From NCBI GenBank assembly GCA_963796685.1, contig CAWCMR010000025.1:1632001-1696000 (forward strand): DNA of 64,000 nt, given 5' to 3'. This stretch comes from an uncultured delta proteobacterium. Lineage in GTDB: Bacteria > Myxococcota_A > Polyangia > Fen-1088. Shown here piece after piece: positions 23,924-42,433 of the stretch (position 1 is its first letter; each line of letters opens with the position of its first letter). The position numbers were made by a program, and so were the translations under genes. The notes beneath the pieces are model-generated. The model was not told where the DNA came from. It searched no databases and saw only the letters and a program-made list of their open reading frames with translations.

Positions 23924-23999
<76 letters not shown>

Positions 24000-24076: not shown

Positions 24077-25009
24077 CTATTTGCGGCTTGCACCTCCCGC
24101 GTTATCGTTGGCTTCCATGCTGTCGAGGGCTTCAGTCACCTCCCCGAGCTGAGCTGGAAGGGCATGGGCGTAGGTTCTGGCCATCATCTCGGGTGAGCTG
24201 TGGCCGGCAAATCTGCATGCCGCCGGCGTGATGCCCGTCTTGCGGACGATCCACGAAAGACAGGTGTGACGGAGCGCGGTTGCATTGAGATCGGGCAGCC
24301 CGCAGCGTCGGCAGTGGCGGGGCAACGTGGTTTTCCTCGAGGGCCAGGGCCGCACCATGTGGTCGAGAGGCCGCGGGCGATCCCGCTGGAACATCTCCCG
24401 AAGCACTTCAAGTAGCGGGCGCGGAATTTTGACCTTGAGGCCTTCGCTGAGCTTGTTTTTCGTGTTGCGGATCAACATCGTCTCTTCCTGCAAATCAACG
24501 TCGGACCAGGTCATTCGCTCGACGTCGCTGGCATGCTGGCCAGTCCAGAGCGCCAACCAATACCACTCAGCCCGGTGCTTCGGAAGAGACTCGTAGAGGT
24601 TCCGAGCCTGCGATGCCGAAATCAAGATCTTCGGCTGCGGCGGCCGCGGGCAAAGGAGGCGAGGAAAAGCGGGCACGCGTGCCAGTCGTCTCCGACGATG
24701 CTGCAACTCGATGGCGGCCTTTAGGGTGGACATGCGCTTGCGCAACGTCTCAGGCCCGGCGGGCGAACGTGCATGAATCGCCTTTTCCCGCGGCTTCGTG
24801 GCCAAGTTGTCGAGCACGAGCTCGTCGACTTGCTCGAGCGGGGTCATGGGGCCGAGGGTCACTTCCCAATACCGGCGGTGTGCTTCCTGCATTTCTAGGG
24901 TCGCTGGCGACCTGACGCCGTCGCGAACTCGCTGGGTGGTCACCTGGATGAGATCGCTGATGGCTTCGGCGATGGTGACGCTCCTGGGTGCCGATGATAG
25001 TTTGTTCAT
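24077..25009 (-). CDS. int: Tyrosine recombinase/integrase with atypical catalytic residues
   Basis: LWTGQHASDV..MTWSDVD, TKN, ALRHT, AGHSS..M...Y; RBS AGGAG; adjacent to attL. Confidence 0.88.
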   Translation of the reverse strand: MNKLSSAPRSVTIAEAISDLIQVTTQRVRDGVRSPATLEMQEAHRRYWEVTLGPMTPLEQVDELVLDNLATKPREKAIHARSPAGPETLRKRMSTLKAAIELQHRRRRLARVPAFPRLLCPRPPQPKILISASQARNLYESLPKHRAEWYWLALWTGQHASDVERMTWSDVDLQEETMLIRNTKNKLSEGLKVKIPRPLLEVLREMFQRDRPRPLDHMVRPWPSRKTTLPRHCRRCGLPDLNATALRHTCLSWIVRKTGITPAACRFAGHSSPEMMARTYAHALPAQLGEVTEALDSMEANDNAGGASRK

Positions 25010-27854: not shown

Positions 27855-28012
27855 GCGCAGCCTCGAGTCCGCGAGCTCGTGGGAGTCCCCGATGCGAAGC
27901 TGGAGCTCGCCGCCACCGGCCCGCGCTTGTGGCGAGGCTTGCCTTGCTCGAGCCACCACCAGGCGATCGCGCCGCCGAGCAGAAGCCAGAAAATGCGCTG
28001 CCAGTTGCCCAT
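27851..28012 (-). CDS. 53-aa N-terminal TM protein (not in the ORF track)
   Basis: MGNWQRIFWLLLGGAIAWWWLEQGKPRHKR...; fills the gap between coupled genes. Confidence 0.65.
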   Translation of the reverse strand: MGNWQRIFWLLLGGAIAWWWLEQGKPRHKRGPVAASSSFASGTPTSSRTRGCA

Positions 28013-28013
28013 G

Positions 28014-28454: not shown

Positions 28455-28615
28455 TGCAGGAGTCCTTTCAGCTGGTCGATCCCCGATCCGATGTCCGCAG
28501 CCTCCTTGATGGTCGCTCGGTTCTTCCAGGCCCACTTGATCTCGTCCCAGTACGCGATCGTCGCGGCCACCACTACCACCGTTACGATCCAGGCGATGCC
28601 GTTGAGGTACTTCAT
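28451..28615 (-). CDS. 54-aa N-terminal TM protein
   Basis: MKYLNGIAWIVTVVVVAATIAYW...; overlaps both neighbours. Confidence 0.65.
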   Translation of the reverse strand: MKYLNGIAWIVTVVVVAATIAYWDEIKWAWKNRATIKEAADIGSGIDQLKGLLQ

Positions 28616-29184
28616 CGGGTTTTCCCCCACTTGCGCCACGCCCAGATCCCGAGGATTGCCAGGACCAAGATCCACCAGATGCCGCCGAGGAAGTTGCCGA
28701 GGAACTTGGAGACGACGTTCGCGATCTTGTCGCCCAGGTCACCGACCACGGGCACCACTGCGTCGGACACCTGGGCCGCCACGGAAGTGTGGAAGAGGCT
28801 ATCGTTGAGCTCGATGGCGCTCGATGCGGTTTGTACGCTGCCAGCGACCACCGAGCGAAGATCGTTCGGCGCCACGCTGGGCAGGGGCGAATCCCAGCCC
28901 GCAGAATTCCCCGCGTCCTGCACGAGGCTGTCGACGGCGTACAGATGAGCAAGCTCGGTGTCGAGCGTGTCCTTCATCGCGGCGGCGTCGTCGGGGGAAA
29001 TGGCGCTCAGGACCGCCAGGTTGATCGTGTCCAGCGCGCCGTTCGCTTTCCAGTTGTTGTAAAGGGTCAGGCTCGAGTAGCAGTCCAGGATCGCGTGTTG
29101 CATCGTACTGAGGACATCCGTCGCCTGCTGGCACGTGGTGCCCGGACCGATCGTCTTCGCGAGATTTGCGCCATAGAGAGCCAC
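28612..29184 (-). CDS. Helical protein with C-terminal TM anchor
   Basis: Ends GGIWWILVLAILGIWAWRKWGKTR. Confidence 0.7.
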   Translation of the reverse strand: MALYGANLAKTIGPGTTCQQATDVLSTMQHAILDCYSSLTLYNNWKANGALDTINLAVLSAISPDDAAAMKDTLDTELAHLYAVDSLVQDAGNSAGWDSPLPSVAPNDLRSVVAGSVQTASSAIELNDSLFHTSVAAQVSDAVVPVVGDLGDKIANVVSKFLGNFLGGIWWILVLAILGIWAWRKWGKTR

Positions 29185-29664
29185 TCAGAACCCTCCCCCC
29201 GCTCGATTGGCCGAGTAGTTTGAGAGGACTCGCTGGATCTCGGCCTTGGCGGCCGTCGTATCCATGCCGTTCTTTGTGGCATCCGCGTACCAGTCGTAAA
29301 GGTTCACGCCTCCACTCATGCCCGCATAGTACGTGTGCCGATTGAGCATCGCGATCGTGTCCGGCGACAAGACCGAGGCCGAAAGCGCAGCGTCGCTGAC
29401 GTCCCCGGGCGCGAACCCCTCCATCGTCAGTGAGCTGCCCGTAACCACTGCAGGAGGGGCAGGCGGATCGAGAATGGAAGGCCCGCTCGAGGCGATGTCG
29501 ATCGCCGGCGGCGGAGGCGCAGGAGCTGGCGCAGGAGGCGGAGGAGCCGGCGCGGCGGCTGGCGGCACCGACGGCTTTCGCTTGGTCCACCACACGATCG
29601 CGATCAGCAGTACGGCTCCAAGGCCCCACAGCCATTCGCGATCGGTGTTCGCCGCAGCAGCCAT
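29185..29664 (-). CDS. N-terminal TM, Pro/Ala-rich linker protein
   Basis: WLWGLGAVLLIAIVWW then PAAAPAPPPPAPAP. Confidence 0.7.
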   Translation of the reverse strand: MAAAANTDREWLWGLGAVLLIAIVWWTKRKPSVPPAAAPAPPPPAPAPAPPPPAIDIASSGPSILDPPAPPAVVTGSSLTMEGFAPGDVSDAALSASVLSPDTIAMLNRHTYYAGMSGGVNLYDWYADATKNGMDTTAAKAEIQRVLSNYSANRAGGGF

Positions 29665-29670
29665 GGTTCT

Positions 29671-30519
29671 CTACGCGTACAGCATCTCGACGTGCAGAGC
29701 GCCAGCGGTGAGATCGGCGATCGTCGCCGGTCCAGTCACCTGCAGCTGCACATAGATATCGGCCGTCCAGGTCGCTGGATCGAGCTGGCCTCCGCCGTCG
29801 AACAAGAGCGCGATGCCCGGCGTGATTCCCAAGTCGACGCGTCCACCAGCACAGAGCGCGCCGGCGCCCGATCCGCTGCCATCGCCGATCGAGGCATAGA
29901 TAGCCCCGGCCGCGGGCTCCGCAAATGGCGTGCGGCGGACGAGGCGAAAGCCCACCCAGCGGTGAAACCCGAGTGGCGGATAGGCGCCCATCTGCAGGAC
30001 CAATTTCGAGCCCTGGTCACCGCCTTGCCCACCGTCCGCGAAGGCGGCAAATCCGAAATCGGCGAAGGCGGTCTTGATCAAGCCTTGTGGCGACGCCGGG
30101 CCTTCGTTCAGGTTCACCAAGTTGAGCAGCTGGTGGAAGTCGATCCATTCCTTGTCGCCGCTGCCCAGCTTGAGCCACCAGTACCCACCCCCCGGATCTC
30201 CGGGGCTCTTGAGCACGGCGATCGATCCCACCGGGCGAGCGAGGCCAGGATCCACCGTCGGCGCCGCAGTGACAGGCTCTGCCACGCTGGTCAGATCGAG
30301 CCACTGGATATCGTTCGCGGCGGTCAGGTGCACGAACAGGTGTCCGTCGTAGACGCCCTGCTGCCCCAGTGCTGCGAGGGTCGGCGTCACACGGGGATCC
30401 GCAGTCAGTGTCAAGATTTGCATGTCTTCTTCTCCTTCTTGGGCTTTGACGATCTGGCCGGCGAGCACCAGCGAGAGCCGATCCCAGTTCACGAGGCCGC
30501 CAAGTGGTGTCGTGCTCAT
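29671..30519 (-). CDS. Hypothetical structural protein (spike/vertex candidate)
   Basis: 282 aa, beta-rich C-terminal domain, within the structural operon. Confidence 0.6.
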   Translation of the reverse strand: MSTTPLGGLVNWDRLSLVLAGQIVKAQEGEEDMQILTLTADPRVTPTLAALGQQGVYDGHLFVHLTAANDIQWLDLTSVAEPVTAAPTVDPGLARPVGSIAVLKSPGDPGGGYWWLKLGSGDKEWIDFHQLLNLVNLNEGPASPQGLIKTAFADFGFAAFADGGQGGDQGSKLVLQMGAYPPLGFHRWVGFRLVRRTPFAEPAAGAIYASIGDGSGSGAGALCAGGRVDLGITPGIALLFDGGGQLDPATWTADIYVQLQVTGPATIADLTAGALHVEMLYA

Positions 30520-31163
30520 GCTGCCTCCGCTTGGATCTGGTCGGCTACGGACTGGGGAACGAAGATGCGGAGCGAGCTCACTCCGCCGACATCGATGGGC
30601 ACGATGCCCATGCTCTCGAACCAGCTGTCACAGACATTCTGGTAGTCGGTCAGCGTCTTGAAGCCCGTCTTGTGCACCCAGTGCTTTGCGCCGTACGAAT
30701 AGTCCTCGGCCGTGCCGGCGCGATTTGCCTCGGAGTACTTGAGATCGTCTTCCCAGGGACCGTTGGCCGTTGAACAGTAGCGTCCTGGCTGCGTGCCCAT
30801 GCCATGCCCACCGGTGACGGCCTGCTCGATGCTCACGCCCTCGGCCGCGGCGTAGTTCATGACGATGCGCTGGATCAGCGTCTTTTCCTTTTCGCCGGCG
30901 TGGGCGTGTTCGCTCGCTGACACGGCAGCTAGAATGTAGGCCTCGCGTGCAACCGGCCGGCCGACGATGGCCGCGGCGCCGGCGACCAGGTCGTCCACGG
31001 ACTCGATGTTGTTGCCTTTGTCGTCCTGGTTATGAGTCCCGAGGCGCCGGCCGCGGCCGATGAAGTTGGTAATCAGCATGATGGGCGTGTCTCCCGTGAA
31101 GAACCACCAGGCGCCGAAACCGCCGAGCAGCAGCCACAGCCAGTTTTTCTTGAGGAAGTCCAT
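30516..31163 (-). CDS. Membrane-anchored cell-wall hydrolase (SleB/Hydrolase_2-like)
   Basis: N-terminal TM; ILAAVSASE...GEKEK...IVMN...SIEQAV...DYSYGAKHW matches the SleB motif order. Confidence 0.6.
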   Translation of the reverse strand: MDFLKKNWLWLLLGGFGAWWFFTGDTPIMLITNFIGRGRRLGTHNQDDKGNNIESVDDLVAGAAAIVGRPVAREAYILAAVSASEHAHAGEKEKTLIQRIVMNYAAAEGVSIEQAVTGGHGMGTQPGRYCSTANGPWEDDLKYSEANRAGTAEDYSYGAKHWVHKTGFKTLTDYQNVCDSWFESMGIVPIDVGGVSSLRIFVPQSVADQIQAEAA

Positions 31164-31173
31164 TGCATGAGCT

Positions 31174-31770
31174 CTACCCAGCGGAGGGAACGAACACGAT
31201 CTCCTTGCCGTGCTTGATTTCGAGCTGCGCACACAGATCGGTGGCGAGCTGCCTGCATCCCAGGGGGAAGGCCTGCTTGGCCTGGATGCTGGACACTACC
31301 TCGTAGTCGTTGCCCTCCGGGCCGGTTGTCTGCGCGGTGATCTCGAATTCGACGCCTTGCAGTCCGCAACCGAGCTCGCACCCATCGTCCAGCACGCCGC
31401 CGGCGAGGAAGATGGCGGCCGGCAACGGATTGGTCAGCCTTCGATAGGGCTGATTCGGGTTGCCGGTTTTCACGAGAGGCCACGCAACGATCGTGCCCTG
31501 CACGTTCGTGGCGGGCTCAGGCGTGAGGGGTCCTGATTCACCGTCGCCCCAGAAGAAATCCAGCCGCAGCCGTCGGTGGAAGGTCACGATAACCTTGAGC
31601 AGTGGGTGCAAGCCCCAGATGGTCAGGGTTGTGATGTCCGGAAAGGACGGAGCCCACAGGTCCGGGCAGGCGTGCGCCAGGAGAATTTCTGCAGGCGTGT
31701 CCACTGGGAGATCCAGAGGGCGGACGCCCCCGAGATCCCAGCCGATGATGCTCCGTGAATTTTCCTCCAT
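31174..31770 (-). CDS. Beta-rich hypothetical protein (minor capsid/penton candidate)
   Basis: 198 aa, alternating beta strands, no TM, downstream of the capsid candidate. Confidence 0.55.
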   Translation of the reverse strand: MEENSRSIIGWDLGGVRPLDLPVDTPAEILLAHACPDLWAPSFPDITTLTIWGLHPLLKVIVTFHRRLRLDFFWGDGESGPLTPEPATNVQGTIVAWPLVKTGNPNQPYRRLTNPLPAAIFLAGGVLDDGCELGCGLQGVEFEITAQTTGPEGNDYEVVSSIQAKQAFPLGCRQLATDLCAQLEIKHGKEIVFVPSAG

Positions 31771-31773
31771 CGC

Positions 31774-31992
31774 CTAGTCTCCCGTGGCATCCGTCGACGG
31801 CGAGATCGAACCAGCCACCGTGTGCCAGAGGTTCGAGAGCCCCGTCGTGAGTACTCCGAGGCCGGTCAGCGTGGCCGCGGTGCCCGACGCCGGCGTTTGT
31901 GGCTTGAGCATCGTCGCCTTGGGCGACAGCATCTCGTAGAGGATGAAGACGCCGAGCGGGATCGCGACGTAGTACCACTTGAACCACTTCAT
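31774..31992 (-). CDS. 72-aa N-terminal TM protein
   Basis: MKWFKWYYVAIPLGVFILYEML; RBS AGGAGG. Confidence 0.7.
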   Translation of the reverse strand: MKWFKWYYVAIPLGVFILYEMLSPKATMLKPQTPASGTAATLTGLGVLTTGLSNLWHTVAGSISPSTDATGD

Positions 31993-32004
31993 TTTGCGAA
32001 CCTC

Positions 32005-32160
32005 CTAGAGAAAACCGATGCCGGCGCCGATCTTCAGAGCGTCCGACCAGCTCAGATCGCCCGATGGGGCCGGCGCGGGCTTGGCCAACACGACCACCAG
32101 CACGAGCAAGGCCGCGGCCGCGGCCACAACGATGAGCGTGATTTCAGTACCCTTGGCCAT
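32005..32160 (-). CDS. 51-aa TM protein (not in the ORF track)
   Basis: MAKGTEITLIVVAAAAALLVLVVVLAKPAPAPSGDLSWSDALKIGAGIGFL; TGATG overlap. Confidence 0.7.
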   Translation of the reverse strand: MAKGTEITLIVVAAAAALLVLVVVLAKPAPAPSGDLSWSDALKIGAGIGFL

Positions 32161-32411
32161 CACCAGTTCCAGGGCATGGCGTCCTTCACGATCGACGTCG
32201 TGCCTTTGACCACGCTCTGTCCAATTCCGAGCGTGGTGTTCACGGCGCCGCCCGCGAGACCGAAGACCGAGCTCGCGCCCGCGCTGACGGTGCCAAATAC
32301 GCCCGTGCTTTGCGGCGCCGCCTTCTTCCCGCGGATGAAAAGCCAGACCAGGACGCCAACGAGGGCGACGGCGCCGACGATGAGCAGCGTCCTGGTGGTG
32401 TTGTCTTTCAT
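32160..32411 (-). CDS. 83-aa N-terminal TM protein
   Basis: MKDNTTRTLLIVGAVALVGVLVWLFIRGKK...; TAATG overlap with the capsid candidate. Confidence 0.7.
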   Translation of the reverse strand: MKDNTTRTLLIVGAVALVGVLVWLFIRGKKAAPQSTGVFGTVSAGASSVFGLAGGAVNTTLGIGQSVVKGTTSIVKDAMPWNW

Positions 32412-34048
32412 TAGGTCACGTCGATGAGGGTCGACGGGTTCCGGAAGTGCTTTGCCTTGCGGTAGGTGGACGGCATGAGGCCGCCGGAGAGCGCGACCTG
32501 TTCCTTGATCTTCGCGGACGAGAGCTCGCGGAGGGATAGGGTCAGGAAGGCGTCGGGTCCGGTGCGAGGAACAGAGAACACCCCGCGCAGCTTCGGCTTG
32601 GTGTCGGCGTTGAACTTCGGCAACGCCATCGGAACCATTTCGAGGCTCGGCTGTCGGAGCCACAGCATGAGCAGCTTGTCGAGCGAGGCGCCGTTGGCCA
32701 CGGTGCCCTGCACGTAGTTGCCGTCGTTGGCGTAGTCGTAGGCACCGATGCGGCCCACGCTCTGCGCTTGCCGGCGCGCGAGCACCAGCATGTCGATCGC
32801 CTTCACGTCCTCGAGGCCGAAGTCGGGCCCGATGATGTTGGTCAGGGTGTCGAAGGTCAGGTTGCCAGGCAACCCAGCCAGCTTCGAGAGCCAGGCCAAT
32901 CCGAGCACCATGTCCTCGGCCTTGCTGGCCGCGGGGCCGGTGCCGCCGAAGTTCTGGAAGATCAGACCGTCTTCGCCGGAGGCCGGCGTGTCGAGCCGGG
33001 CGTAGGGCAAATAGTTCTGCCGCCACAGCGGGCTGATCGCGTAGCTCGTGCCGAGACGGACCGTGCTCGGATTCTTGGTGTTGGCGTCGGTCGAAACCGC
33101 CGCCAGAGCCGTGCTGGCCGCGATCCCGATCTGGAATCGCATGTTGTCCAGCGTGCGTAGCCACGGGCACGTGGCCGAGGGGTCGCCCAGGGTGCGCTGT
33201 GCCCACGGAAATACGAAGTACTTCGTCAACGGGACGTCGTTCGGATCCGTCGTGGGTACGGTGATCGTCACCGACGGGGCGTCTCCCCACCGGCTGAAGC
33301 CCTGGCCGACGAAGGAGATCCCGCTCTCGAGGATGGGCCCGGTCCCCGTCACCTTGTCCAGGATGGTTCCATGGAACAGGCTGGAGATCTGCAGGTAGTC
33401 GAGCAACCGTGCCAGGTCCTGGCTCAAGATCGGGTTCGTTCCGGTCGAGACCTGTTCGACGGTGGTATCGACGGCGACGATGCTATCGACGCCGATCAGC
33501 GGCTGCCCGCCAGCCGTCTTGTTCTTCGTCGTCGTCTGCATGTAGAGCGAGAGCTCTTGGGTCGCACCAGGCGTGTACGCGAGGCTCTTGCCCTGCCCTG
33601 GCATGGTGACGCCGTCGAGCGTGTCCGGCGCTGAAAGATGGCTGATACCGAAAGCGACGCCGAGGCCTAGCAGGCCTCCCAAGAATCCCAAGACTTGACC
33701 AAGCCAACCGCTCGAGCTCTGCACAAAGCAAGGAACGCTCCCAGCGCATGCGGCGAAGGCGTAGTCAGCGCCGAGCAACACGAAGCCCACGGGCAGCAGC
33801 AAGCCGCTGATGCGCAGCAAGCTCCGCAGGACGCTGGGCAGCTTGTCGCCGTTTCCGGCCGCGGTGATCGTACCGTCGGCGGCCTTGGTAGTCGTCAAGC
33901 TGGTGAACCAGGGCTTGAGCGCCATGCCCACGCCCACCAGCACCAGCACGATGATCGGGCCCATGAACCAGTACTTTTTGCAAAAGTCGATGAAGGCCAT
34001 CGGGGCTTTTGTGACCTGCTCGGTGACGGTGGGGGACGCATCGGCCAT
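32411..34048 (-). CDS. Candidate major capsid protein (double-jelly-roll-like) with N-terminal TM extension
   Basis: 545 aa, largest gene, directly downstream of the ATPase; ~135 aa with three hydrophobic segments then ~410 aa beta-rich body; the CDS is secure, the fold is inferred. Confidence 0.6.
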   Translation of the reverse strand: MADASPTVTEQVTKAPMAFIDFCKKYWFMGPIIVLVLVGVGMALKPWFTSLTTTKAADGTITAAGNGDKLPSVLRSLLRISGLLLPVGFVLLGADYAFAACAGSVPCFVQSSSGWLGQVLGFLGGLLGLGVAFGISHLSAPDTLDGVTMPGQGKSLAYTPGATQELSLYMQTTTKNKTAGGQPLIGVDSIVAVDTTVEQVSTGTNPILSQDLARLLDYLQISSLFHGTILDKVTGTGPILESGISFVGQGFSRWGDAPSVTITVPTTDPNDVPLTKYFVFPWAQRTLGDPSATCPWLRTLDNMRFQIGIAASTALAAVSTDANTKNPSTVRLGTSYAISPLWRQNYLPYARLDTPASGEDGLIFQNFGGTGPAASKAEDMVLGLAWLSKLAGLPGNLTFDTLTNIIGPDFGLEDVKAIDMLVLARRQAQSVGRIGAYDYANDGNYVQGTVANGASLDKLLMLWLRQPSLEMVPMALPKFNADTKPKLRGVFSVPRTGPDAFLTLSLRELSSAKIKEQVALSGGLMPSTYRKAKHFRNPSTLIDVT

Positions 34049-34313
34049 AGGAAACACCTTTCTCGGCGCTGGGCGCTGTTGACGTTGTGTCCAGTCTCAG
34101 GCCAATCGCCGTCGACGTCCGCTGAGGATCTGTCTCCGTCGCTGGCGATGGCGTCTAGCGATGAGGGATAGGCGCGGGACCGACGGTGGTCAGTTTCCCG
34201 CACGTGTTGCATCGGTAGGCTCTCATCAATACCCCGTCGCTCCAGTAGGCGTCGGAGCGGCAGGCGTTGAGCCGGAACAAATGCGCAAGGCTGTGCAGAA
34301 TCTTCCGCAGCAT

Positions 34314-35114
34314 TCACGCCGGACCGTAGATCACACCGTCCCAGGCGCGATCGGTGAAGAGGACGATGCATTCGCCCCGCTCCATCCGAGTGAGCAACAT
34401 CGCCGCCTCTTTCGGGATGAGCCGCAGATCGAGGGAGTAGTCGAGCGAGCGGCCACCGAGGCCAAAGAAAATGTAAGCCGTGGCGTTGTCCAGCGCCGAG
34501 CCGGGCATGTGGCTCGGCAGCTGCAGCAGGATGATCGAGCTCGCCCCGGGCCCGCGTCCTTGGAGCTGCAGCCAGACGAGCGCCGGGCCAGCAAACACGC
34601 GCGGTGTGGGCTCGAGCGTGTCTTGGTTCACCCGCAGAAGCGGCGTCAGCTCGTCACCGAGGAACGCGAAGTGCTCCCCTGATTCGGCCGCGTCCCGGAC
34701 GAGTGAGGCCGCATCGTCGCCGCCGATGCCGGGCCGGCAGACGATGAAGGCCGGCGCATCCTCGACGATCGCGCGCCTGGCCTCCGTCATCGAATGGACC
34801 AGCTTCCCCTTGTACTGCGGTCGCTCGGGATCCTTCACGTCGTGGATAACGGCCGTCGAGCAGATGTGCCGGCGCTGCATCTCCTCGACGAACTTCACCG
34901 TGAACCAGGTCTTCCCCTTGCCGCTGGCACCGCCGATCACGAACCGGCCGCCCTCGCCCTCGGGGACGGCGTCGAGAGCAAGCGCAATCGCAGCGCTCTG
35001 AGTGCCGCGAGGCTGGCCGGCCGGGCGAGCCTCGGCTTTTTGAGGCCCCAGTAGTGGTTTCGGCTGTTGTACGCGTTTCGGAATCTTCGCCAGACTTCGT
35101 GATGTACCAGACAT
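34314..35114 (-). CDS. FtsK/HerA-superfamily ATPase (A32/P9-like genome packaging ATPase)
   Basis: Walker A GASGKGKT, HDVK, Walker B FAFLGDE, QGRGPG Arg finger, LLQLP sensor; 266 aa, no TM. Confidence 0.8.
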   Translation of the reverse strand: MSGTSRSLAKIPKRVQQPKPLLGPQKAEARPAGQPRGTQSAAIALALDAVPEGEGGRFVIGGASGKGKTWFTVKFVEEMQRRHICSTAVIHDVKDPERPQYKGKLVHSMTEARRAIVEDAPAFIVCRPGIGGDDAASLVRDAAESGEHFAFLGDELTPLLRVNQDTLEPTPRVFAGPALVWLQLQGRGPGASSIILLQLPSHMPGSALDNATAYIFFGLGGRSLDYSLDLRLIPKEAAMLLTRMERGECIVLFTDRAWDGVIYGPA

Positions 35115-35127
35115 AGACGATCCTTTG

Positions 35128-35943
35128 TCACTCGACCGAGGAGGAGGGCGCCGCACCAGTCGCAGCACCATCGTTTGGCACTACGGACAGCCGCGGAGGA
35201 AGGGCGGAGCTCGGCGGGGATCGCGGCTGGTCCTCGCTCTCGGAAGTATCGTGGGCATGCGGCGGGACGCTCTCCTCGGTGGTACTGGGCGCACCAGGAT
35301 CGCGCTCCGCAGGTGGCACACGGCGCTTGGGCCGCAGCGGCTCTCCCGTCATGTACATCTGGATCCACATCACGATGCCCAGGAGGAGCGAGGCCGGGCC
35401 GGGCGCGAGCTCTATCTTCGGCATCTTGCCCTTGCCCTTCGTCCACTTCTCGAATGCCTCGTCGAACTTGTCCTTGATCTCCTCGTTCGGTTCGTCGGGG
35501 TTCCGGCCGCACCACTTGATCGTCTTCTGCTCTCCCGCGACGATCAGCTCGGGCGCGCCCTTGCGGAAGAGTTGCCCGATATCGACCTTCTCCGACTCCT
35601 CCGCCGGCGGCGGCTGCGCTGGTTGCGGGGTGGCTTGCTGCGCTTGCTGCGCTTGCTGCGGCTGCTGCGCCTGCTGTGCGGTGAATCCCCACTTTGCGCG
35701 CAGGGCTTCGTTTGGCGCCCGGCTTGGCGTCGCCGGCGCCGCCGGTTGGCTGGTTGCCGAGCTCGCCGAGGCCTCGGCCGAGCTCGCCGGCGGCTGACCA
35801 GATGCCACCGCCCGCGGTTTGAGTGGGCGATCGCCGCATTTCTTGTCGCAATCCAGGCACTTCGAGATCCCCGAGATGCCCTTGCCGTTGGCGTCCTTCT
35901 TGTCCCAGCGGTGGTTTCGCGTTTCGCATCCTGGTCTACCCAT
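35128..35943 (-). CDS. Hypothetical protein with Cys/His N-terminus, Gln/Ala repeats and one hydrophobic segment
   Basis: C....H...CLDC...C; AQQAQQPQQAQQAQQA; ASLLLGIVMWIQMYM. Confidence 0.65.
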   Translation of the reverse strand: MGRPGCETRNHRWDKKDANGKGISGISKCLDCDKKCGDRPLKPRAVASGQPPASSAEASASSATSQPAAPATPSRAPNEALRAKWGFTAQQAQQPQQAQQAQQATPQPAQPPPAEESEKVDIGQLFRKGAPELIVAGEQKTIKWCGRNPDEPNEEIKDKFDEAFEKWTKGKGKMPKIELAPGPASLLLGIVMWIQMYMTGEPLRPKRRVPPAERDPGAPSTTEESVPPHAHDTSESEDQPRSPPSSALPPRLSVVPNDGAATGAAPSSSVE

Positions 35944-36382
35944 TTTTCATCGGCTCCAGCAGTTTCGGTCCTACAAGCTCCGCCTCGATCACGTTCGTGC
36001 GCCCGTCCGCAGCCTCGAGTTTGAGGGTGGTCAGCTGCGCCCGCTCTCGCTTGTATCGCTCGACTTGCGCAAGGAAGATCCGTTGGATGTTCGGTGCGTG
36101 CGTCTCGACGGCGACTAGGATCGCCTTCACGCAGTCGACCGGCGAGAGCGCTCGCCAGAGGAGCTTTTTGCCCTCCTTCATGATCGTATCCTTCACTTCC
36201 ACGAGGAAGGGCGACGTCGGACGGGAGGCGTGAGCGATCAGGAGGGGGATGTAGTCGAAGATCCAATCCGAGAATTCCTCAACTTGCGGCTCGGCCGCTC
36301 TCGCAACCACCGCGTCGAGCTTCGCTACGAACTTCTCTTCGAGGGTCAGCTTCCGTTCTTCGCTCCGCGTGAAGATGCCCAT
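35936..36382 (-). CDS. Hypothetical helical protein
   Basis: 148-aa ORF overlapping the downstream start. Confidence 0.6.
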   Translation of the reverse strand: MGIFTRSEERKLTLEEKFVAKLDAVVARAAEPQVEEFSDWIFDYIPLLIAHASRPTSPFLVEVKDTIMKEGKKLLWRALSPVDCVKAILVAVETHAPNIQRIFLAQVERYKRERAQLTTLKLEAADGRTNVIEAELVGPKLLEPMKNG

Positions 36383-36429
36383 GCGCAGAGGGTAACACGT
36401 TTCTGCGCAATCGTGCTACCATCCTCACC

Positions 36430-36900
36430 ATGGAGCTCCTGCTCAACCGGACGAGGGATCGGCCGCCGACGCCGCGAGAGGTACAAACGGACATCCGCAA
36501 GCTGGGCTACGTGAACGGGGGAGCGCTTCACGGCAGCTTCAACCGCGATCTCGGGATCTGGCTCTGCATGGTCGTAGCCTTCTGTGATCAGGACGATCTC
36601 TACGCGGCCAACCACTTTTCCGGCGCGCAAGCCGAGCTCGAGTGGTGGCAGCGCGATCACGTTCTCACGGGCCTGGCCTTCGATCGCAGCGAACCGGATT
36701 CGCACTGGGAAGCGCTGGCCTGCGCAAAGCGCGGTCAGCTCGAGCGGGCACGGATCTGCGCATGGTTCGACCGCGGCTCGCTGCCCCGCCTGATCCCTCA
36801 CTTCGAATTCTTCCGGCGGGCGCCTCGAGATCGCGAAAGGTTCCGGCCGCGTGGTGAACCGATCGACGTCCGAGAGATGCGCCGAATGCTCGGCGTTTGA
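36430..36900 (+). CDS. Hypothetical protein (divergent orientation)
   Basis: 156-aa ORF with protein-like composition. Confidence 0.5.
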   Translation: MELLLNRTRDRPPTPREVQTDIRKLGYVNGGALHGSFNRDLGIWLCMVVAFCDQDDLYAANHFSGAQAELEWWQRDHVLTGLAFDRSEPDSHWEALACAKRGQLERARICAWFDRGSLPRLIPHFEFFRRAPRDRERFRPRGEPIDVREMRRMLGV

Positions 36901-36922
36901 ATCCCCCACAAAAAGGAGTCCC

Positions 36923-37354
36923 ATGGATCTGCAGAAGCTCTTCGTCGCCCTCGAACAAGCAGGAGTCACCACGATCGGACAGGCGCGCAGCGCACTGGTG
37001 TCCCTCGGCATCCAGCCCGCATCGCTGGCCCTCAACCACTCCGATTTGCCGAAAGCGCTCTCGACTCTCAAGCCGGTGACAGCGAAGCCTGGAACCGCGG
37101 CCGCGGCCACTGCCGTACCGGCGCCCGCCTCGCCAAAGCCATCGGACGTTGCCGTCAGCCAGGCCGCCGAGCTCGCCGTGAAGATCGTGGCTCCCCAGCT
37201 CGAGCACCTCCTCGAGGTTGCGATCAACCAGATCCACTCCTCGATCGCGCAGCACATGGATCCCGTGCACGCGACTCTGACCCAGGTTCAGACCACGCTG
37301 GCGGCCGCCGCAGCCAAGGCGTCCGCGCCCGCGGCCGCACCGGCGCAAACGTAA
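36923..37354 (+). CDS. Ala-rich hypothetical protein
   Basis: RBS AAGGAG, GC3-rich codons. Confidence 0.65.
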   Translation: MDLQKLFVALEQAGVTTIGQARSALVSLGIQPASLALNHSDLPKALSTLKPVTAKPGTAAAATAVPAPASPKPSDVAVSQAAELAVKIVAPQLEHLLEVAINQIHSSIAQHMDPVHATLTQVQTTLAAAAAKASAPAAAPAQT

Positions 37355-37371
37355 TCCTACGGAAGGGCCGG

Positions 37372-37587
37372 CTATGTCCGGCCCGCCATATCCGTTGAGT
37401 GGCAGTCCGGCCCGCCCCTGGTTTTGGTTGATTTCCCAGGGGCGGGCCGTTTTGCTGGCTTGAGCCTTGACGGCGGGCACCAGCTCCACCAGAGCTCGAA
37501 GAGCTCGCGGCTGATCTCGGTGCACCTCGAGATCCTTGGGAGATCCACCACGTCGCGGACCTTTCGGTCTGTCACTTCTTTTCCCAT
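37372..37587 (-). CDS. Hypothetical protein
   Basis: 71-aa ORF overlapping the end of the replication gene. Confidence 0.35.
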   Translation of the reverse strand: MGKEVTDRKVRDVVDLPRISRCTEISRELFELWWSWCPPSRLKPAKRPAPGKSTKTRGGPDCHSTDMAGRT

Positions 37588-38510
37588 GGCCGATCGCCGT
37601 AGGTCTTTTCCCAGTGGTCCTTTGCCTCCTGCTGCTTCCGGTGCAAGCGCTTGAGCTCGTGCGCGTCCAGGCCAGCTCCGAGATCTGCCAGAAGCGAATC
37701 CAGGTACCTCCGCGCGAAGGCCTTCGGATTTTCCTCCGCGGCCTTCTTGGTCTCTGCTTTCGTGGCCGGCTTCGCAGGCGCAACTTTTCGTTCAGCGATG
37801 AACATCTGCTTTTCGAGGTAAACGTCGGCCCACGGACGCCATCTCTCACTCCGCGACATATATCTAGGGACCTGCAGTGGTAACGCATACTGCAATTGCT
37901 CCCACTCTTCCGTGGTCAGCTTGGCCAGCAGGCGCTTGCATTTAGGCGGATCTCTCAGCTTCCAGTGCAGGTTCTTGAACCACTCCCACCGCGTCAGCGC
38001 TACCTTTCCACCCCCCTTCAGGGGGGCCCCGGGGGGCGCGTCCACGGGACGCCCTTTATTACTTTCTGCAGAATGTCTCTGAGACGTCCCGTTGATGTCC
38101 CGTGGACGTCCCGTGGACGTCCCGTTTTCACTTCTCGCTTCCTCCAAGGCATCTTCGTGGAGCTGCTCGCGGAATTTCGCCTTTGCCTTCTTCCAGCGGA
38201 GCCGCTCCTTCTCGTAGCTGCCCATCGGCGTCTTGTCCCAATCGGGGTAGTACCAGGTCCGTCGCCGACGGCGGAGAAAGTGATTCGAGCCCAAGGCCTT
38301 GACCAGCGTTCGAGTGGATGCCCTCACGCGCATCCGGGATCGGATGTGTTCGATCTGGTACTTCTTGGGCAACTTTCCGTCGCTGCCCTCGAGCATGACA
38401 AACTCCCGCAAGCGCATGATCGCCTCGGCGCCCGCACAGTCCTTGATTTGCTCGGCGAAGGTTTTGGTGAAGACGTCGTCCCAGAATCCGATCTCACAGG
38501 GGACGTACAT
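37572..38510 (-). CDS. Putative replication initiator (lambda O / replisome-organiser architecture)
   Basis: N-terminal wHTH-like domain ending YYPDW, basic helix, iteron-encoded linker, helical C-domain. Confidence 0.65.
   Translation of the reverse strand: MYVPCEIGFWDDVFTKTFAEQIKDCAGAEAIMRLREFVMLEGSDGKLPKKYQIEHIRSRMRVRASTRTLVKALGSNHFLRRRRRTWYYPDWDKTPMGSYEKERLRWKKAKAKFREQLHEDALEEARSENGTSTGRPRDINGTSQRHSAESNKGRPVDAPPGAPLKGGGKVALTRWEWFKNLHWKLRDPPKCKRLLAKLTTEEWEQLQYALPLQVPRYMSRSERWRPWADVYLEKQMFIAERKVAPAKPATKAETKKAAEENPKAFARRYLDSLLADLGAGLDAHELKRLHRKQQEAKDHWEKTYGDRPWEKK
38040..38126. promoter_or_regulatory. Putative replication origin (iterons)
   Basis: Four tandem 11-mers GA(C/T)GTCCCGT(G/T) at 38083-38126, AT-rich 38054-38067, inverted copy at 38040-38051. 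Confidence 0.7.
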
Positions 38511-38817
38511 CTGTACCCCACTTCGCCAAGCAAGTTTCTGCGTGCCTGGACCATCGATCGCCCTTGTAGTCCAGGTGTTCAAGGATCTCCCGGAACCACT
38601 GCGGTCCGATGGTCTTGTGCTTGGCCGTGACCTCGTACCACAGCACGATGGTTCCCGTCTTGTCGGGGTTCGGTTCGACGTTAATGAGATCCCCAATGTT
38701 CTTTTCCGGGAACCGATCGTCCCTGGCCCAGATGATCTTGGCCTTGCAACCGAGACACACAGTGAAGTGCCCCGGCTGCGATCCTTTTACCTGGGCCCTC
38801 TGCACCTTCTTTTCCAT
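38494..38817 (-). CDS. Phage Zn-binding protein (CxxC...HxxxC)
   Basis: CLGCKAKIIW...RHAETC. Confidence 0.65.
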   Translation of the reverse strand: MEKKVQRAQVKGSQPGHFTVCLGCKAKIIWARDDRFPEKNIGDLINVEPNPDKTGTIVLWYEVTAKHKTIGPQWFREILEHLDYKGDRWSRHAETCLAKWGTDVRPL

Positions 38818-38819
38818 CT

Positions 38820-39035
38820 TCACCGCCGCACCGCCTTTCTTCGCAAGCACAGCCGGCGGATAGTTGCCGGATCCGGTGGCCACGTCTCACCTGCAGGCCG
38901 CGAGAACACCTTACCCAGGTGCGCGGAGATCTGCCGGAAGTTCATGCCCTGGCCACGTGCGCGGATCGCCTCGTCGGTGGCCGCCGGCGTCCAGGGGAAC
39001 TTGTGCGGAGCTCCGATCTTGCGTCCGCCGCTCAT
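38820..39035 (-). CDS. Small HTH DNA-binding protein
   Basis: WT...RARGQGMNFRQISAHLG...ATIRRL; RBS GGAGGT. Confidence 0.65.
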   Translation of the reverse strand: MSGGRKIGAPHKFPWTPAATDEAIRARGQGMNFRQISAHLGKVFSRPAGETWPPDPATIRRLCLRRKAVRR

Positions 39036-39367
39036 GCTGCACCTCCGGAGTTGGCGAGAAGGATCCGATCGATGTGAACCTTCAACGCACTGGTGAGAAC
39101 CTCGGAAACATTGACTGGCAGTAGAACCTGCCGGACGTCGGGACGTAGACGCGTACACGCGACGGTGAACTCTCCCGAGATGAAACCCACGAAGAAGAGC
39201 TCAGGCCGGAGGCTGCGTTGATCGAATTCTCGCGCAACCGCGTTCGAGAGCTCGTGGACCAGTTGATCGCGGTAGGCGGTCGAATCGAAACAAACGGGCA
39301 CCCTGCGCAGTTGCTGCGGCGGCCGCGGCCGGCGGAGGATGTTACGGAACCACGCGAGGCCGATCAT
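39032..39367 (-). CDS. Hypothetical protein
   Basis: ATGA overlaps at both ends. Confidence 0.55.
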   Translation of the reverse strand: MIGLAWFRNILRRPRPPQQLRRVPVCFDSTAYRDQLVHELSNAVAREFDQRSLRPELFFVGFISGEFTVACTRLRPDVRQVLLPVNVSEVLTSALKVHIDRILLANSGGAA

Positions 39368-39645
39368 CGGAGATCTCCGGCCGCGAGCTCCCACATGGTG
39401 ACCTCGTCATCGGTCATTGCTCGGGCGATCGTCGAGCCGCAGTTGCGACACGTGCCAAGCTCGAGGACCTGGGCGCCGGCGTCTTTCGGGTCATCCGGCT
39501 TGTCATCGCCGGCGCGGCAATCCTGGAAACCGCAGGGTGAGGTCAGAGTACGGAATAAAGCGACGCTGCGCTTGATTGCTTCATGGGACTGTGGTGTGCA
39601 GGCGCGTTGTGGCTTGCCATCGCGGTCCAGCTGAGATAGATGCAT
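39364..39645 (-). CDS. Zn-ribbon-like hypothetical protein
   Basis: LELGTCRNCGSTI; RBS GGAGGAAG; first gene inside attR. Confidence 0.6.
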   Translation of the reverse strand: MHLSQLDRDGKPQRACTPQSHEAIKRSVALFRTLTSPCGFQDCRAGDDKPDDPKDAGAQVLELGTCRNCGSTIARAMTDDEVTMWELAAGDLR

Positions 39646-39711
39646 GTGAACTTCCTCCGAGGAGGAAGGCAGCGATGGAAGCGACGAGGGATGAAAGGCA
39701 GCCTACAACCG

Positions 39712-39757
39712 GGACTGAAAATCCGTGTGTAGACAGTTCGACTCTGTCCCTGGGCAC
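39712..39757 (+). repeat. attR: displaced 3' half of tRNA-Phe
   Basis: 44/46 identical to 23952-23997. Confidence 0.92.
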
Positions 39758-39820
39758 TGCCAGAGTAAATACCTCGTACGTAAAGAGGACGCTTGCTTAG
39801 AGCGTCGAAGGAGACATTCA

Positions 39821-42433
39821 ATGGCTCGTAAAGTCATCATTTTCATTTTAGCCATCGGGGCCGTCACCGGCGGGTACTTCCTGGGGCGAAAGAACTGGAA
39901 CCTGGGCGGCGGCAACGCCGTTGCCAAGTTCACTTGTCCCAATCCCGGCGCCGCGGTGGCGGGTGATGACGTCGAGCGCAAGTGCGTTCCCTTCGACGGC
40001 AAGGCCGAGGGCTCGAGCAAGGCGATGGTCACCATCGTCGAGTTCTCCGACTTTCAGTGCCCGTTCTGCAGCAGGGTCCTGCCCACCCTGGACAAGCTGC
40101 TCAAGGAATACCCGGACAAGGTTCGGATCTTCTTCAAGAACAACCCGCTGCCCTTCCATAGCGACGCACCGCTGGCAGCCCAGGCCGCCGTGGCCGCCGA
40201 GGACCAGGGCAAGTTCTGGCAGATGCACGACATCCTGTTCAAGAACCAGCAGAACCTCAAGCGCCCTGATCTCGAGAAGTACGCCAAGGAAATCGGCCTG
40301 GACGTCGAGAAATTCAAGAAGGACATCGATTCGCCCGCCACCAAGAAGCACGTCGCGGACGACATGGAGCTTGCCAAGAAGCTGGGCGTGCAGGGCACCC
40401 CGAACTTCTTCATCGATGGTCGCCCCATCCGCGGCGCCGTGCCCTACGAACAGTTCAAGTCGGCGGTGGATGACGAGCTCGCCCGTGGCAAGAAGCTGAT
40501 GGCCAAGGGCGTCGCGTCCGGCAAGGTGTTCGCCGCGCTCATGAAGGGCGAGGGCAAGGGCCTCGGCACCCCGACGCCGCCTGCGCCGCCACCGCACATT
40601 CCAATCGGTTCCGAAGTCTACAAGGTCGAACCCGGAGACGCGCCGCAGGTGGGCGGCAAGGAGCCCAAGGTTACCCTCATCGAGTTCTCGGACTTCCAGT
40701 GCCCCTACTGCTCTCGCGCCAAGGGCACGCTGGACGAGCTGCAGAAGATCTACAAGGACGACCTGCAGATCACTTTCCGGAACTTCCCGCTTCCCTTCCA
40801 CCAGAACGCCATGCCCGCGGCCATCGCCGCCAAGGCCGCCGAGGAGCAGGGCAAGTTCTGGCCGATGTATGACAAGCTGTTCGCCAACCAGCAGGCGCTT
40901 TCATCGGCGGATCTCGAGAAGTACGCCTCCGAGATCGGCCTGGACATGGCCAAGTACAAGGCTGCCATCGCGAACCCCAAGACCAAGGCCGCCGTAGAAG
41001 CCGACGCGAAGATGGGCAGCAACTTCGGCGTGGGAGGAACGCCTTCGTTCTTCATCAACGGCCACGCTTTCAGCGGTGCCTATCCTCTCGAAAGCTTCAA
41101 GATGGCCATCGACGACGAGATCAAGAAGGTCGATGCCAAGATCGCGTCCGGTACACCGCGCGCGGGTCTGTACGCCGCGCTCGTCAAGGACGGCCTTACC
41201 AAGGCCGAGCCCAAGAAGGAGCAGGCGCGCCCCGGCGAGCCGCAGGCCGGCGAGGTCTACAAGGCTGATATCAAGGGCGCGCCGATCAAGGGCGCCAAGG
41301 ACGCCCTCGTCACCATCGTGCAGTTCTCGGACTTCCAGTGCCCGTTCTGCTCGCGCGTCGAGCCCACCATCGACCAGGTCATGAAAGAGTACGCCGGCAA
41401 GGTCCGCGTGGCGTGGCGCAACCTGCCGCTTCCCTTCCACAACAACGCCAAGCCGGCCGCCATCGCGGCCATGGCCGCCAACGAGCAGGGCAAGTTCTGG
41501 CAGATGCACGACATCCTGTTCAAGAACCAGCAGGCCCTTTCCGCCGCCGATCTCGACAAGTACGCCAAGGAGATCGGCCTCAACATGACCAAGTTCAAGG
41601 CCGCCCTCGAAGACAAGAAGCTCGCGGAGCGGGTCGAAGCCGATGCGGCCATGGGGGCCAAGATCGGCGCGCGCGGCACGCCGGCTTTCTTCATCAACGG
41701 CACCTTCCTGTCGGGTGCTCAGCCGTTCGAGCAGTTCAAGGCTCGCATCGATGAGGAGCTCAAGAAGGCCGAAGCGCTGGCCAAGAAGGTTGGCGGCAAG
41801 GCGAAAGTCTATGACGCCCTCATGAAGACGGCCAAGGCCGAGGTCGGCGGTGCACCGGCGCCCTCGGCTGACAACGAGGCGGCCCCTGGTCCGGCCAAGA
41901 AGGTCGAAGTGGGCAATGCGCCGGTTCGCGGCCCCAAGAATGCACCCATCACCGTGGTGCTCTTCTCGGACTTCCAGTGCCCGTTCTGTAGCCGCGTCGA
42001 GCCCTCGATTGCCGAGCTACAGAAGCTGTACCCCGGCAAGGTGCGCGTGGCATGGAAGAACTACCCGCTTCCGTTCCACAACAACGCCAAGCCCGCGGCC
42101 GAGGCCGCCTTGGCCGCCAACGAGCAGGGCAAGTTCTGGGAGATGCACGACATCCTGTTCAAGAACCAGCAGGCCCTGACTGCCGACGACCTCGAGAAGT
42201 ACGCCAAGGAAATCGGTCTCGACATGACCAAGTTCAAGGCCGCCATCGACAGCCACAAGTTCGCGGCTCAGATCGAGGCGGACACGAAGCAGGGTTCGGC
42301 GCTGGGGGTGCAGGGAACCCCGGCGGCGTTCGTCAATGGACAGCTGGTCTCGGGCGCGCAGCCCGTCGATGCCTTCAAGAAGATCGTCGAGGCCGATCTC
42401 AAGGGCGGCAAAGCCAAGGCCAAGGCCAACTAG
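39821..42433 (+). CDS. Membrane-anchored/secreted protein with four tandem DsbA-like thioredoxin domains
   Basis: Four FSDFQCP(F/Y)C motifs, each followed by LPFH, GKFW and GTP; N-terminal hydrophobic segment; RBS AAGGAG. Confidence 0.92.
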   Translation: MARKVIIFILAIGAVTGGYFLGRKNWNLGGGNAVAKFTCPNPGAAVAGDDVERKCVPFDGKAEGSSKAMVTIVEFSDFQCPFCSRVLPTLDKLLKEYPDKVRIFFKNNPLPFHSDAPLAAQAAVAAEDQGKFWQMHDILFKNQQNLKRPDLEKYAKEIGLDVEKFKKDIDSPATKKHVADDMELAKKLGVQGTPNFFIDGRPIRGAVPYEQFKSAVDDELARGKKLMAKGVASGKVFAALMKGEGKGLGTPTPPAPPPHIPIGSEVYKVEPGDAPQVGGKEPKVTLIEFSDFQCPYCSRAKGTLDELQKIYKDDLQITFRNFPLPFHQNAMPAAIAAKAAEEQGKFWPMYDKLFANQQALSSADLEKYASEIGLDMAKYKAAIANPKTKAAVEADAKMGSNFGVGGTPSFFINGHAFSGAYPLESFKMAIDDEIKKVDAKIASGTPRAGLYAALVKDGLTKAEPKKEQARPGEPQAGEVYKADIKGAPIKGAKDALVTIVQFSDFQCPFCSRVEPTIDQVMKEYAGKVRVAWRNLPLPFHNNAKPAAIAAMAANEQGKFWQMHDILFKNQQALSAADLDKYAKEIGLNMTKFKAALEDKKLAERVEADAAMGAKIGARGTPAFFINGTFLSGAQPFEQFKARIDEELKKAEALAKKVGGKAKVYDALMKTAKAEVGGAPAPSADNEAAPGPAKKVEVGNAPVRGPKNAPITVVLFSDFQCPFCSRVEPSIAELQKLYPGKVRVAWKNYPLPFHNNAKPAAEAALAANEQGKFWEMHDILFKNQQALTADDLEKYAKEIGLDMTKFKAAIDSHKFAAQIEADTKQGSALGVQGTPAAFVNGQLVSGAQPVDAFKKIVEADLKGGKAKAKAN

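What the first reader, a model, noticed from the sequence alone, without database searches (positions are those of the whole stretch)
37572..38510. Iteron origin embedded in a lambda-O-style initiator gene within a tailless-type provirus
Seen: four perfectly phased 11-bp repeats (GACGTCCCGTT, GATGTCCCGTG, GACGTCCCGTG, GACGTCCCGTT; 38083-38126), a degenerate fifth (38072-38082), an AT-rich patch (38054-38067) and an inverted copy (38040-38051), all in the interdomain linker. Established: lambdoid and Firmicute phage initiators carry their origin in this position. Inference: theta replication using host helicase, a module typical of tailed phages joined to a non-tailed morphogenesis module. No helicase loader is recognisable.
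Basis: partly seen in the sequence, partly recalled or inferred. Interest (0 to 1): 0.7.

Follow-up and report, generated by a model that had tools for sequence, protein, structure and literature searches.

The report
Replication origin inside tailless-virus initiator gene
A small tailless virus integrated in a bacterial chromosome carries 11-base DNA repeats beside an AT-rich patch in the middle of a gene predicted to start DNA copying, so this is likely its replication origin, an arrangement well known from tailed phages, with the same class of initiator already reported in other tailless viruses.

Summary
Four 11-bp repeats (38083-38126), an AT patch and a distal copy lie in the disordered linker of a 312-aa gene. 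The array is unique in the 7.3-Mb genome, and the patch is the most AT-rich 20-mer of the provirus. The unit is better read as a dyad, GTCC-N3-GGAC, tiled one per helical turn, so the 'inverted copy' is one more dyad across the AT patch. Four homologous genes keep the phased repeats, and 34 of 85 further homologous proteins can encode them at period 11 (shuffles 1.2). The protein is a winged-helix replisome-organiser/DnaD-like initiator (PHROG 9474 in 60 of 89 family members). It works like lambda O but is not a member of that family. The 15.8-kb provirus has a double-jelly-roll capsid fold (PRD1 P3, Z 20.5). No helicase or loader was found; the host has DciA. Theta replication with the host helicase is inferred, not shown. 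DnaD-like initiators are already reported in tailless Vinavirales, so the combination is known; the mapped origin and this subfamily appear undescribed. Earlier scan notes cover this same provirus; none found this origin on other DNA.

The parts
37572..38510 (-). Initiator gene (P0001, 312 aa): predicted N-terminal winged helix (about 9-98) with a long helix (95-127), disordered linker (128-168), helical C-terminal domain of the DnaD_C/Phg_2220_C type (169-240) and a C-terminal helical hairpin
38075..38129 (.).
38055..38074 (.). AT-rich patch (15 of 20 A/T), likely the unwinding element
38040..38050 (.).
38010..38038 (.). C-run/G-run box that encodes PPGAPLKGGG; conserved in the family, role unknown
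38494..38883 (-). 129-aa ORF overlapping the initiator start, with a CxxC motif; also upstream of the initiator in L003 (30% identity); no family hit
23952..23997 (+). attL, inside the 3' part of tRNA-Phe (23924-23999)
39712..39757 (+). attR, 44 of 46 identical to attL, 15,760 bp downstream
24077..25003 (-). Tyrosine integrase
   Evidence: (PF00589, E 5.8e-11)
32411..34057 (-). Major capsid protein, predicted double jelly-roll from residue about 135, with a helical hydrophobic N-terminal extension
34314..35171 (-). P-loop ATPase just upstream of the capsid gene, likely the packaging ATPase (FtsK-HerA type not firmly shown)

Best explanation
The repeats are likely the lytic replication origin of the provirus, and the gene that contains them encodes a predicted winged-helix initiator that would bind them. 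After the integrase excises the 15.8-kb element as a circle (inferred), initiator dimers would bind the 11-bp GTCC-N3-GGAC dyads, one per helical turn and so on one face of the DNA, with one more dimer across the AT patch. The wrapped DNA would melt at the 13-20-bp AT patch, the C-terminal DnaD_C-like domain would hold the single strand, and the host DnaB helicase, probably with the host loader DciA, would be loaded for theta replication by host primase and polymerase. The origin can sit inside the gene because it is written into an unstructured linker. Shown: the repeats, their dyad structure, phase and conservation, the AT patch, the provirus ends, the family link of the protein. Predicted: the folds. 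Inferred: binding, dimer state, melting, helicase route, theta mode.
For: Family link: 60 of 89 family members hit phrog_9474 'replication initiation protein' (best E 1.1e-16); 38 of the 42 distant hits I scanned (of 48 rows below E 1e-10) hit it too, and four carry DnaB_2 (three over the cut-off), one DnaT and one Phage_rep_org_N. Family profile against 18 of those distant proteins: probability 99.6%, 234 columns, both domains. Atlas: homologue P0007 scores 0.96 to replisome-organiser clusters; its C-domain scores 0.93 to Phg_2220_C and TM 0.70-0.80 to initiator C-domains. Model pLDDT 88.5; named viral fold hits are DUF1376 proteins, replisome organisers and replication initiators (best E 5.4e-6). 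DNA-level selection: period 11 is not a codon multiple; GGAC stands at gene positions 389, 400, 411, 422 in both the window and L003 (43% protein identity); L005 and L006 have three phased GGAC, G160 a chain of five CCGA at 10-11 bp. 34 of 85 other homologues can encode three or more phased [GC]GAC at period 11 (shuffles 1.2, sd 1.1, max 3); other periods 7-15 give 0-6. Dyads with 2- or 3-base centres are enriched in those linkers (116 vs 48.9; 84 vs 31.6). In lambda the origin is iterons plus an AT-rich tract in the middle of gene O, bound by dimers (PMC7466680, passages). Host has DciA over the Pfam cut-off and DnaB-like genes. L003 and L005 have one att core between integrase and initiator and no tRNA gene, the excised arrangement.
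Against: No experiment. P0001 alone has no Pfam, PHROG, NCBIfam or PDB sequence hit; the link is transitive. PDB fold matches are weak (best Z 6.0, rmsd 2.6 over 70 residues; no Foldseek hit under E 0.001), so they show a winged helix and no more. The AT patch is short, and in L005 and L006 it is not the most AT-rich 13-mer of the gene. In L006 the phased-word chain is not significant (335 of 1000 recodings), and its period-11 score is reached by 27 of 1000 (L005: 9 of 1000). 51 of 85 homologues fail the strict period-11 test; the N-domain control also gave 5 against 0.3 at period 11, and homologues are related, so counts overstate independence. The count of three GTCC-N3-GGAC in the window is not above chance (mean 1.74); only their clustering in 79 bp is. 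The C/G box does not fold better than shuffles in the window (z -0.7). No DnaA box with up to 1 mismatch lies between 34850 and 54427.
Confidence: 0.85

Rival explanations
1. The dyads are operators: the protein is a winged-helix regulator that binds inside its own gene as a transcription roadblock, and replication starts elsewhere.
For: Best PDB matches of the N-domain are CRP-, MarR- and ArsR-type regulators; tiled palindromes suit a dimeric regulator.
Against: Both domains align with phage replication initiators; no other replication gene was found among 32 provirus ORFs scanned; the sites flank the most AT-rich 20-mer of the provirus. Autoregulation could still be a side effect.
Confidence: 0.06
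2. The repeats are slippage products tolerated in an unconstrained linker and have no DNA-level function.
For: The linker is disordered and variable; 9 other non-triplet arrays of similar score exist in the genome; L006 is weak on one statistic.
Against: A gain or loss of one 11-bp unit shifts the frame; one unit has both arms changed together (GTCT-N3-AGAC); phase and position persist in homologues of 28-43% identity and show in 34 of 85 proteins only at period 11.
Confidence: 0.03
3. It is the origin, but helicase loading does not use DciA: the initiator's C-terminal part or one of the small unassigned ORFs (38494-38883, 37372-37587, 36430-36900, 36851-37354) recruits DnaB directly, or initiation goes through host restart proteins.
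For: No DnaC/IstB- or lambda-P-like gene in the provirus or in 102 ORFs of three relatives; the family has an extra conserved C-terminal helical hairpin; several small ORFs are conserved in L003. This is a variant of the best explanation, not an alternative to the origin itself.
Against: The upstream ORF was not detected in L005 or L006; no interaction data; DciA is present in the host.
Confidence: 0.4
4. The virus replicates by rolling circle or protein priming like PM2 or PRD1, and this locus is secondary.
For: These are the usual modes among double-jelly-roll viruses (PMC5894146 and PMC9502842, passages).
Against: No HUH or Rep_trans endonuclease and no family B polymerase among 32 ORFs scanned; no ORF is long enough for a polymerase except the capsid gene; the element has att sites and an integrase.
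Confidence: 0.03

Closest known systems
Phage replisome organisers / DnaD-like winged-helix initiators (PHROG 9474, 2447, 13246; neighbours Pfam Phage_rep_org_N, DUF1376, DnaB_2, Phg_2220_C)
   Same: Two-domain layout with a variable linker, N-terminal winged helix plus long helix, DnaD_C-type C-domain.
   Different: A distinct subfamily: no Pfam model of these families hits any of 89 members; extra C-terminal helical hairpin; no loader gene beside it; found on double-jelly-roll viruses and on one capsid-less island.
Phage lambda O protein and ori-lambda
   Same: Iterons and an AT-rich tract in the middle of the initiator gene; iterons are inverted repeats (PMC7466680, passages). One cluster with Phage_rep_O aligns to the C-domain (TM 0.70).
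   Different: 11-bp units instead of 19-bp; a site on both sides of a short AT patch; no PF04492 hit; no P gene in the genome.
Vinavirales proviruses with DnaD-like winged-HTH initiators (PMC9502842) and phage Jorvik Gp2 (PMC10589892)
   Same: Double-jelly-roll capsid and packaging ATPase joined to a non-rolling-circle, host-dependent initiator.
   Different: The passages I read map no origin or iterons; the genome here is 15.8 kb (relatives on 15-18-kb contigs) against 9-12 kb; the 545-aa capsid protein is nearest to PRD1 P3 in fold (Z 20.5, rmsd 3.8, 310 aligned; PM2 P2 Z 16.6) and has an N-terminal extension; it encodes its own tyrosine integrase.
RepA_N plasmid initiators (PDB 4pta, 4pt7, 5kbj)
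   Same: Winged-helix initiator; weak fold match to the N-domain (Z 4.9, rmsd 3.0, 82 aligned). That their origins lie inside repA is recalled, not checked here.
   Different: Match is not above unrelated winged helices; no sequence hit.

Membership tests
Lambda O family | N-terminal Phage_rep_O (PF04492) sequence domain | tested here: not met
   0 of 89 members hit it at E 0.05; P0001 none
Lambda O family | Iterons plus AT-rich tract in the middle of the gene | tested here: met
Lambda O family | 19-bp inverted-repeat iterons | tested here: not met
   units are 11-bp dyads; 19 bp from PMC7466680
Lambda O family | Adjacent P-type helicase loader | tested here: not met
   PF06992 not found in G000 (88.6% complete; control rings in E. 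coli); the provirus itself is fully assembled
Lambda O family | Same N-domain fold as a solved O protein | tested here: inconclusive
   generic winged-helix matches only
Replisome-organiser / DnaD-like phage initiators | N-terminal domain homologous to PHROG replication initiation families | tested here: met
   60 of 89 members hit phrog_9474; profile-profile 99.6%; P0001 alone does not hit
Replisome-organiser / DnaD-like phage initiators | Winged-helix fold in the N-domain | tested here: met
   three helices plus beta hairpin at pLDDT over 95; Z 5.5-6.0 to winged helices, a predicted model
Replisome-organiser / DnaD-like phage initiators | DnaD_C / DnaB_2 / Phg_2220_C-type C-terminal domain | tested here: met
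   (on homologue P0007, 50% identical)
Replisome-organiser / DnaD-like phage initiators | Repeats and AT-rich tract in the linker, kept in homologues | tested here: met
Replisome-organiser / DnaD-like phage initiators | Specific binding to the repeats and origin activity | not testable with these tools
   needs gel shift and minireplicon
Double-jelly-roll viruses (Bamfordvirae) | Double-jelly-roll major capsid protein | tested here: met
   PRD1 P3 E 5.5e-11 to 1e-9; Z 20.5, first unrelated row 8.9; predicted model, pLDDT 73.5
Double-jelly-roll viruses (Bamfordvirae) | FtsK-HerA-type packaging ATPase | tested here: inconclusive
   Walker A/B conserved in four relatives; HerA hits only at E 0.014-0.4 and other ATPases score as well; one weak terminase PHROG hit (E 6e-4)
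Order Vinavirales | PM2-like capsid protein and the 12 core genes | not tested
   no tree or core-gene profiles run; fold is closer to PRD1 than PM2, size differs; not filed here

The most novel reading that the evidence does not exclude
This is the first origin mapped by sequence in a double-jelly-roll virus that replicates in theta mode: an undescribed lineage of 15-18-kb temperate tailless viruses uses its own initiator subfamily, which coats gap-free 11-bp dyads one dimer per helical turn, brackets a very short AT patch, and loads the host DnaB with no viral loader at all, either through DciA or through its own C-terminal hairpin. The arms of the dyad vary between members (GGAC, CGAC; 2- or 3-base centre), giving a natural series of incompatibility groups.
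Probability: 0.3. Interest if true: 0.55.

Novelty: new member of a known kind. Interest (0 to 1): 0.33.

Why it matters
It gives a base-level, testable origin for a group of tailless viruses whose replication has only been guessed from protein names, and a one-gene replicon of under 1 kb that could serve as a vector origin for a GC-rich, uncultured host group. It is also a simple system for asking how a phage without a loader gene gets the helicase in a DciA host. It does not overturn anything: in-gene iteron origins are textbook, and swapping of replication modules, including DnaD-like initiators, among tailless viruses is published.

Tried and rejected
Homodimer prediction of residues 1-128 gave no verdict (score 0.32, mark 0.42) and is not used. 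Single-sequence searches of P0001 found nothing in Pfam, PHROG, NCBIfam, PDB or 50,697 phage records; profiles A3 and A4 found no meaningful PDB sequence. No lambda O, DnaD or DnaT chain is listed in the fold searches, which does not exclude them. No relative was found in viral contigs or in the species-genome scan. Genome searches: 0 of 60 relatives with P0001; 4 of 400 class genomes with the profile, of which only G160 is a close member (only 5 candidates scored per genome); 0 of 400 phylum genomes at E 1e-12; the capsid profile hit 0 of 88 family genomes, G160 included. One public run held 7% of the words, covered only fragments of the capsid region, not the initiator, and showed no att joint; no RNA holder listed. 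Sigma-70 scan of 36000-40000 found no promoter; its terminator-like hits at 38038 and 38104 are the dyads themselves. No DnaA box near the origin. The C/G box as a special hairpin is not supported in the window (z -0.7) though it is in L006 and G160 (z -2.8, -3.3). The capsid profile found no hit in the held part of L006 (2,688 bases of that contig not held). Ten homologues looked up by cluster carried no useful names. The one supplement held for PMC9502842 has no 'DnaD' string, so I could not see which contigs carry those initiators or compare them; other supplements may bear on novelty. The host's taxon was not determined here.

Full report
Observation. The finding's coordinates are an intact 312-codon ORF on the minus strand. 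TRF calls 38083-38125 a period-11 array of 3.9 copies. It is beyond chance: 0 of 1000 synonymous recodings and 0 of 1000 codon shuffles reach its period-11 score, three or four GGGAC at 11-bp phase occur only here in the 7.3-Mb genome, and only 4 of 1245 TRF rows have period 10-11 with comparable size and score. The patch 38055-38074 is the most AT-rich 20-mer of the provirus.

A better reading of the unit. Shifted by three bases, the units are dyads: GTCC-N3-GGAC at 38097 and 38108, GTCT-N3-AGAC at 38075 (both arms changed together), a degenerate unit at 38086 and a half site at 38119. The 'inverted copy' at 38040-38050 is one more perfect dyad across the AT patch. These are the only three GTCC-N3-GGAC of the 64-kb window; three is not above chance as a count (mean 1.74), but they lie within 79 bp. 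A C-run/G-run box follows (38010-38038).

Conservation. The metagenome scan gave five loci with three distinct genes (L002-L004 identical over their shared length), and the class search gave G160. L003 (43% identity) has GGAC at the same gene positions 389, 400, 411, 422 and the distal dyad at 462 against 461; L005 has three phased GGAC and dyads at 410 and 467; L006 has three phased GGAC with 2-base centres; G160 (28%) has five GTC-N4/5-GAC dyads at 10-11 bp. Period-11 scores were reached by 0, 9, 27 and 0 of 1000 recodings for L003, L005, L006 and G160; the chain statistic was not significant for L006. For homologues without DNA I asked whether the linker peptide can encode three phased [GC]GAC words. 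After dropping the four family members used to choose the motif, 34 of 85 can at period 11, against 1.2 (sd 1.1) in shuffles, while periods 7-15 otherwise give 0-6; an N-domain control gave 5 against 0.3. Dyads with 2- or 3-base centres are enriched; so is a 6-base spacing (99 vs 32) that I cannot explain. This test shows compatibility only, and the proteins are related. A loose proline-glycine pattern for the C/G box is met by 84 of 89.

The protein. Alone it has no family hit. The first search gave 14 homologues; their profile gave 142 representatives, 94 under E 1e-10. Of the 89 full-length members aligned, 60 hit phrog_9474, replication initiation protein; none hit an initiator Pfam model. 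Of 42 distant hits scanned, 38 hit phrog_9474. The family profile aligns to 18 of these over both domains with probability 99.6%. The AlphaFold model (pLDDT 88.5) has a winged-helix N-domain, a 33-residue helix, no structure at 128-168 and a helical C-domain. PDB matches are weak winged helices; viral matches with names are DUF1376 proteins, replisome organisers and initiators. The Atlas places homologue P0007 with replisome organisers and its C-domain with Phg_2220_C and other initiator C-domains. So it works like lambda O but belongs to the replisome-organiser/DnaD-like group.

The element. A 46-bp repeat (44 identical) bounds 23952-39757 and restores tRNA-Phe. It has a tyrosine integrase, a P-loop ATPase and a 545-aa protein whose model matches double-jelly-roll capsid proteins, PRD1 P3 first. 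No portal, tail or tailed-capsid family was hit in 32 ORFs; two weak head-and-packaging PHROG hits appeared (terminase E 6e-4 on the ATPase, protease E 0.097). L003 and L005 share integrase, initiator, ATPase and capsid gene, and hold one att core and no tRNA between integrase and initiator, the excised arrangement; L006 shares integrase, initiator and ATPase. Three more initiator/capsid pairs have equal longest-contig lengths (15,942; 17,287; 16,404), which suggests shared contigs. The family is not confined to these viruses: in G160 it sits between an excisionase-like HTH gene and an integrase in a 15.5-kb tRNA-Glu island with defence-type cargo, and no capsid match was found in that genome (88% complete).

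Helicase route. No helicase, primase, DnaC/IstB or lambda P family was found in the provirus or in 102 ORFs of 150 aa or more from L003, L005 and L006; the only convincing Walker A motif in each is the ATPase. The host has one DciA over cut-off and DnaB-like genes; its one strong PF01695 match lies on another contig and was not examined. DciA is the loader-type gene of most phyla that lack DnaC/DnaI (PMC5109545, passages). Whether DciA or a viral part recruits DnaB is open.

Mechanism. Excision to a circle, dimers on tiled dyads, melting of the AT patch, single-strand binding by the C-domain and host helicase loading, by analogy with ori-lambda (PMC7466680, passages). Shown here: sequence anatomy, conservation, family link, provirus ends. 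Predicted: folds. Inferred: every biochemical step. Confidence 0.85 that this is the origin with its initiator.

What is known. DnaD-like winged-HTH initiators are listed among the exchangeable replication proteins of Vinavirales (PMC9502842, passages and one supplement searched). Jorvik's Gp2 resembles the P1 lytic replication protein and is thought to need host factors (PMC10589892, passages). Replication modules are recurrently replaced among double-jelly-roll viruses (PMC5894146, passages). PMC11630473 had nothing on this (passages). Searches listed no paper that maps an in-gene iteron origin in such a virus or describes this lineage; the library lacks most subscription papers. Earlier scan notes describe this same provirus and its capsid extension; none matched the initiator on other DNA.

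Verdict. A real, conserved and now well-defined origin in a known kind of initiator gene, on a true tailless provirus. New member of a known kind; interest 0.33.

Noticed in passing
window 32411-34057 (-): The double-jelly-roll capsid protein has about 135 extra N-terminal residues, modelled as hydrophobic helices, in all 19 aligned relatives, with an invariant Ala at 99 after a hydrophobic stretch. Already noted by the scan (e1-6637268); probably the more unusual feature of this virus.
   Followed up: partly
L012 4432-19946 (G160:C17): Capsid-less 15.5-kb island at tRNA-Glu (25-bp direct repeat) with a member of this initiator family, HTH_17 gene, integrase, AAA ATPase plus S8 protease pair, Gp49/HTH pair, S41 peptidase and a transposase.
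   Followed up: partly
L003 408-454; L005 8061-8105: Both relatives carry the same tRNA-Phe att core (43 of 45 identical) once, between integrase and initiator, so they were assembled in the excised arrangement.
   Followed up: yes
L006 11061-11777, 3369-4742, 9170-9685: This relative has a resolvase-family gene right after the initiator, a glycosyltransferase and a weak nucleoside 2-deoxyribosyltransferase hit.
   Followed up: no
L005 13234-14997 (-): 587-aa protein with a pectate-lyase-like domain, possibly the receptor-binding spike.
   Followed up: no
G000:C19:17424-18766 (L017, L019): The best dnaB match is split over two reading frames, perhaps an assembly error; a second DnaB-like gene on C13 is unbroken.
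   Followed up: partly
window 20381-22996 (+): 871-aa protein with a primase-polymerase-like region and an XPB-like helicase region, outside the provirus, between tRNA-Lys and tRNA-Arg (both below cut-off).
   Followed up: no
window 15722-16157: Two near-identical 205-bp tandem copies just before tRNA-Lys (16174-16247).
   Followed up: no
window 23225-23252 and 23406-23433: 28-bp direct repeat (93%) 181 bp apart, upstream of tRNA-Arg.
   Followed up: no
window 39725-42433 (+): Host protein with four thioredoxin/DsbA-like stretches (NF041057 over cut-off) right after attR.
   Followed up: no
window 37408-37449 and 25976-26064: Strong intergenic inverted repeats (14 bp perfect; 21 bp at 95%) between convergent or adjacent viral genes, likely terminators or regulatory sites.
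   Followed up: no
L014, L015, L016: Distant initiators in three other genomes also have repeats or a C/G box in the linker (25-bp and 11-bp periods) with no match to this virus's other genes.
   Followed up: partly
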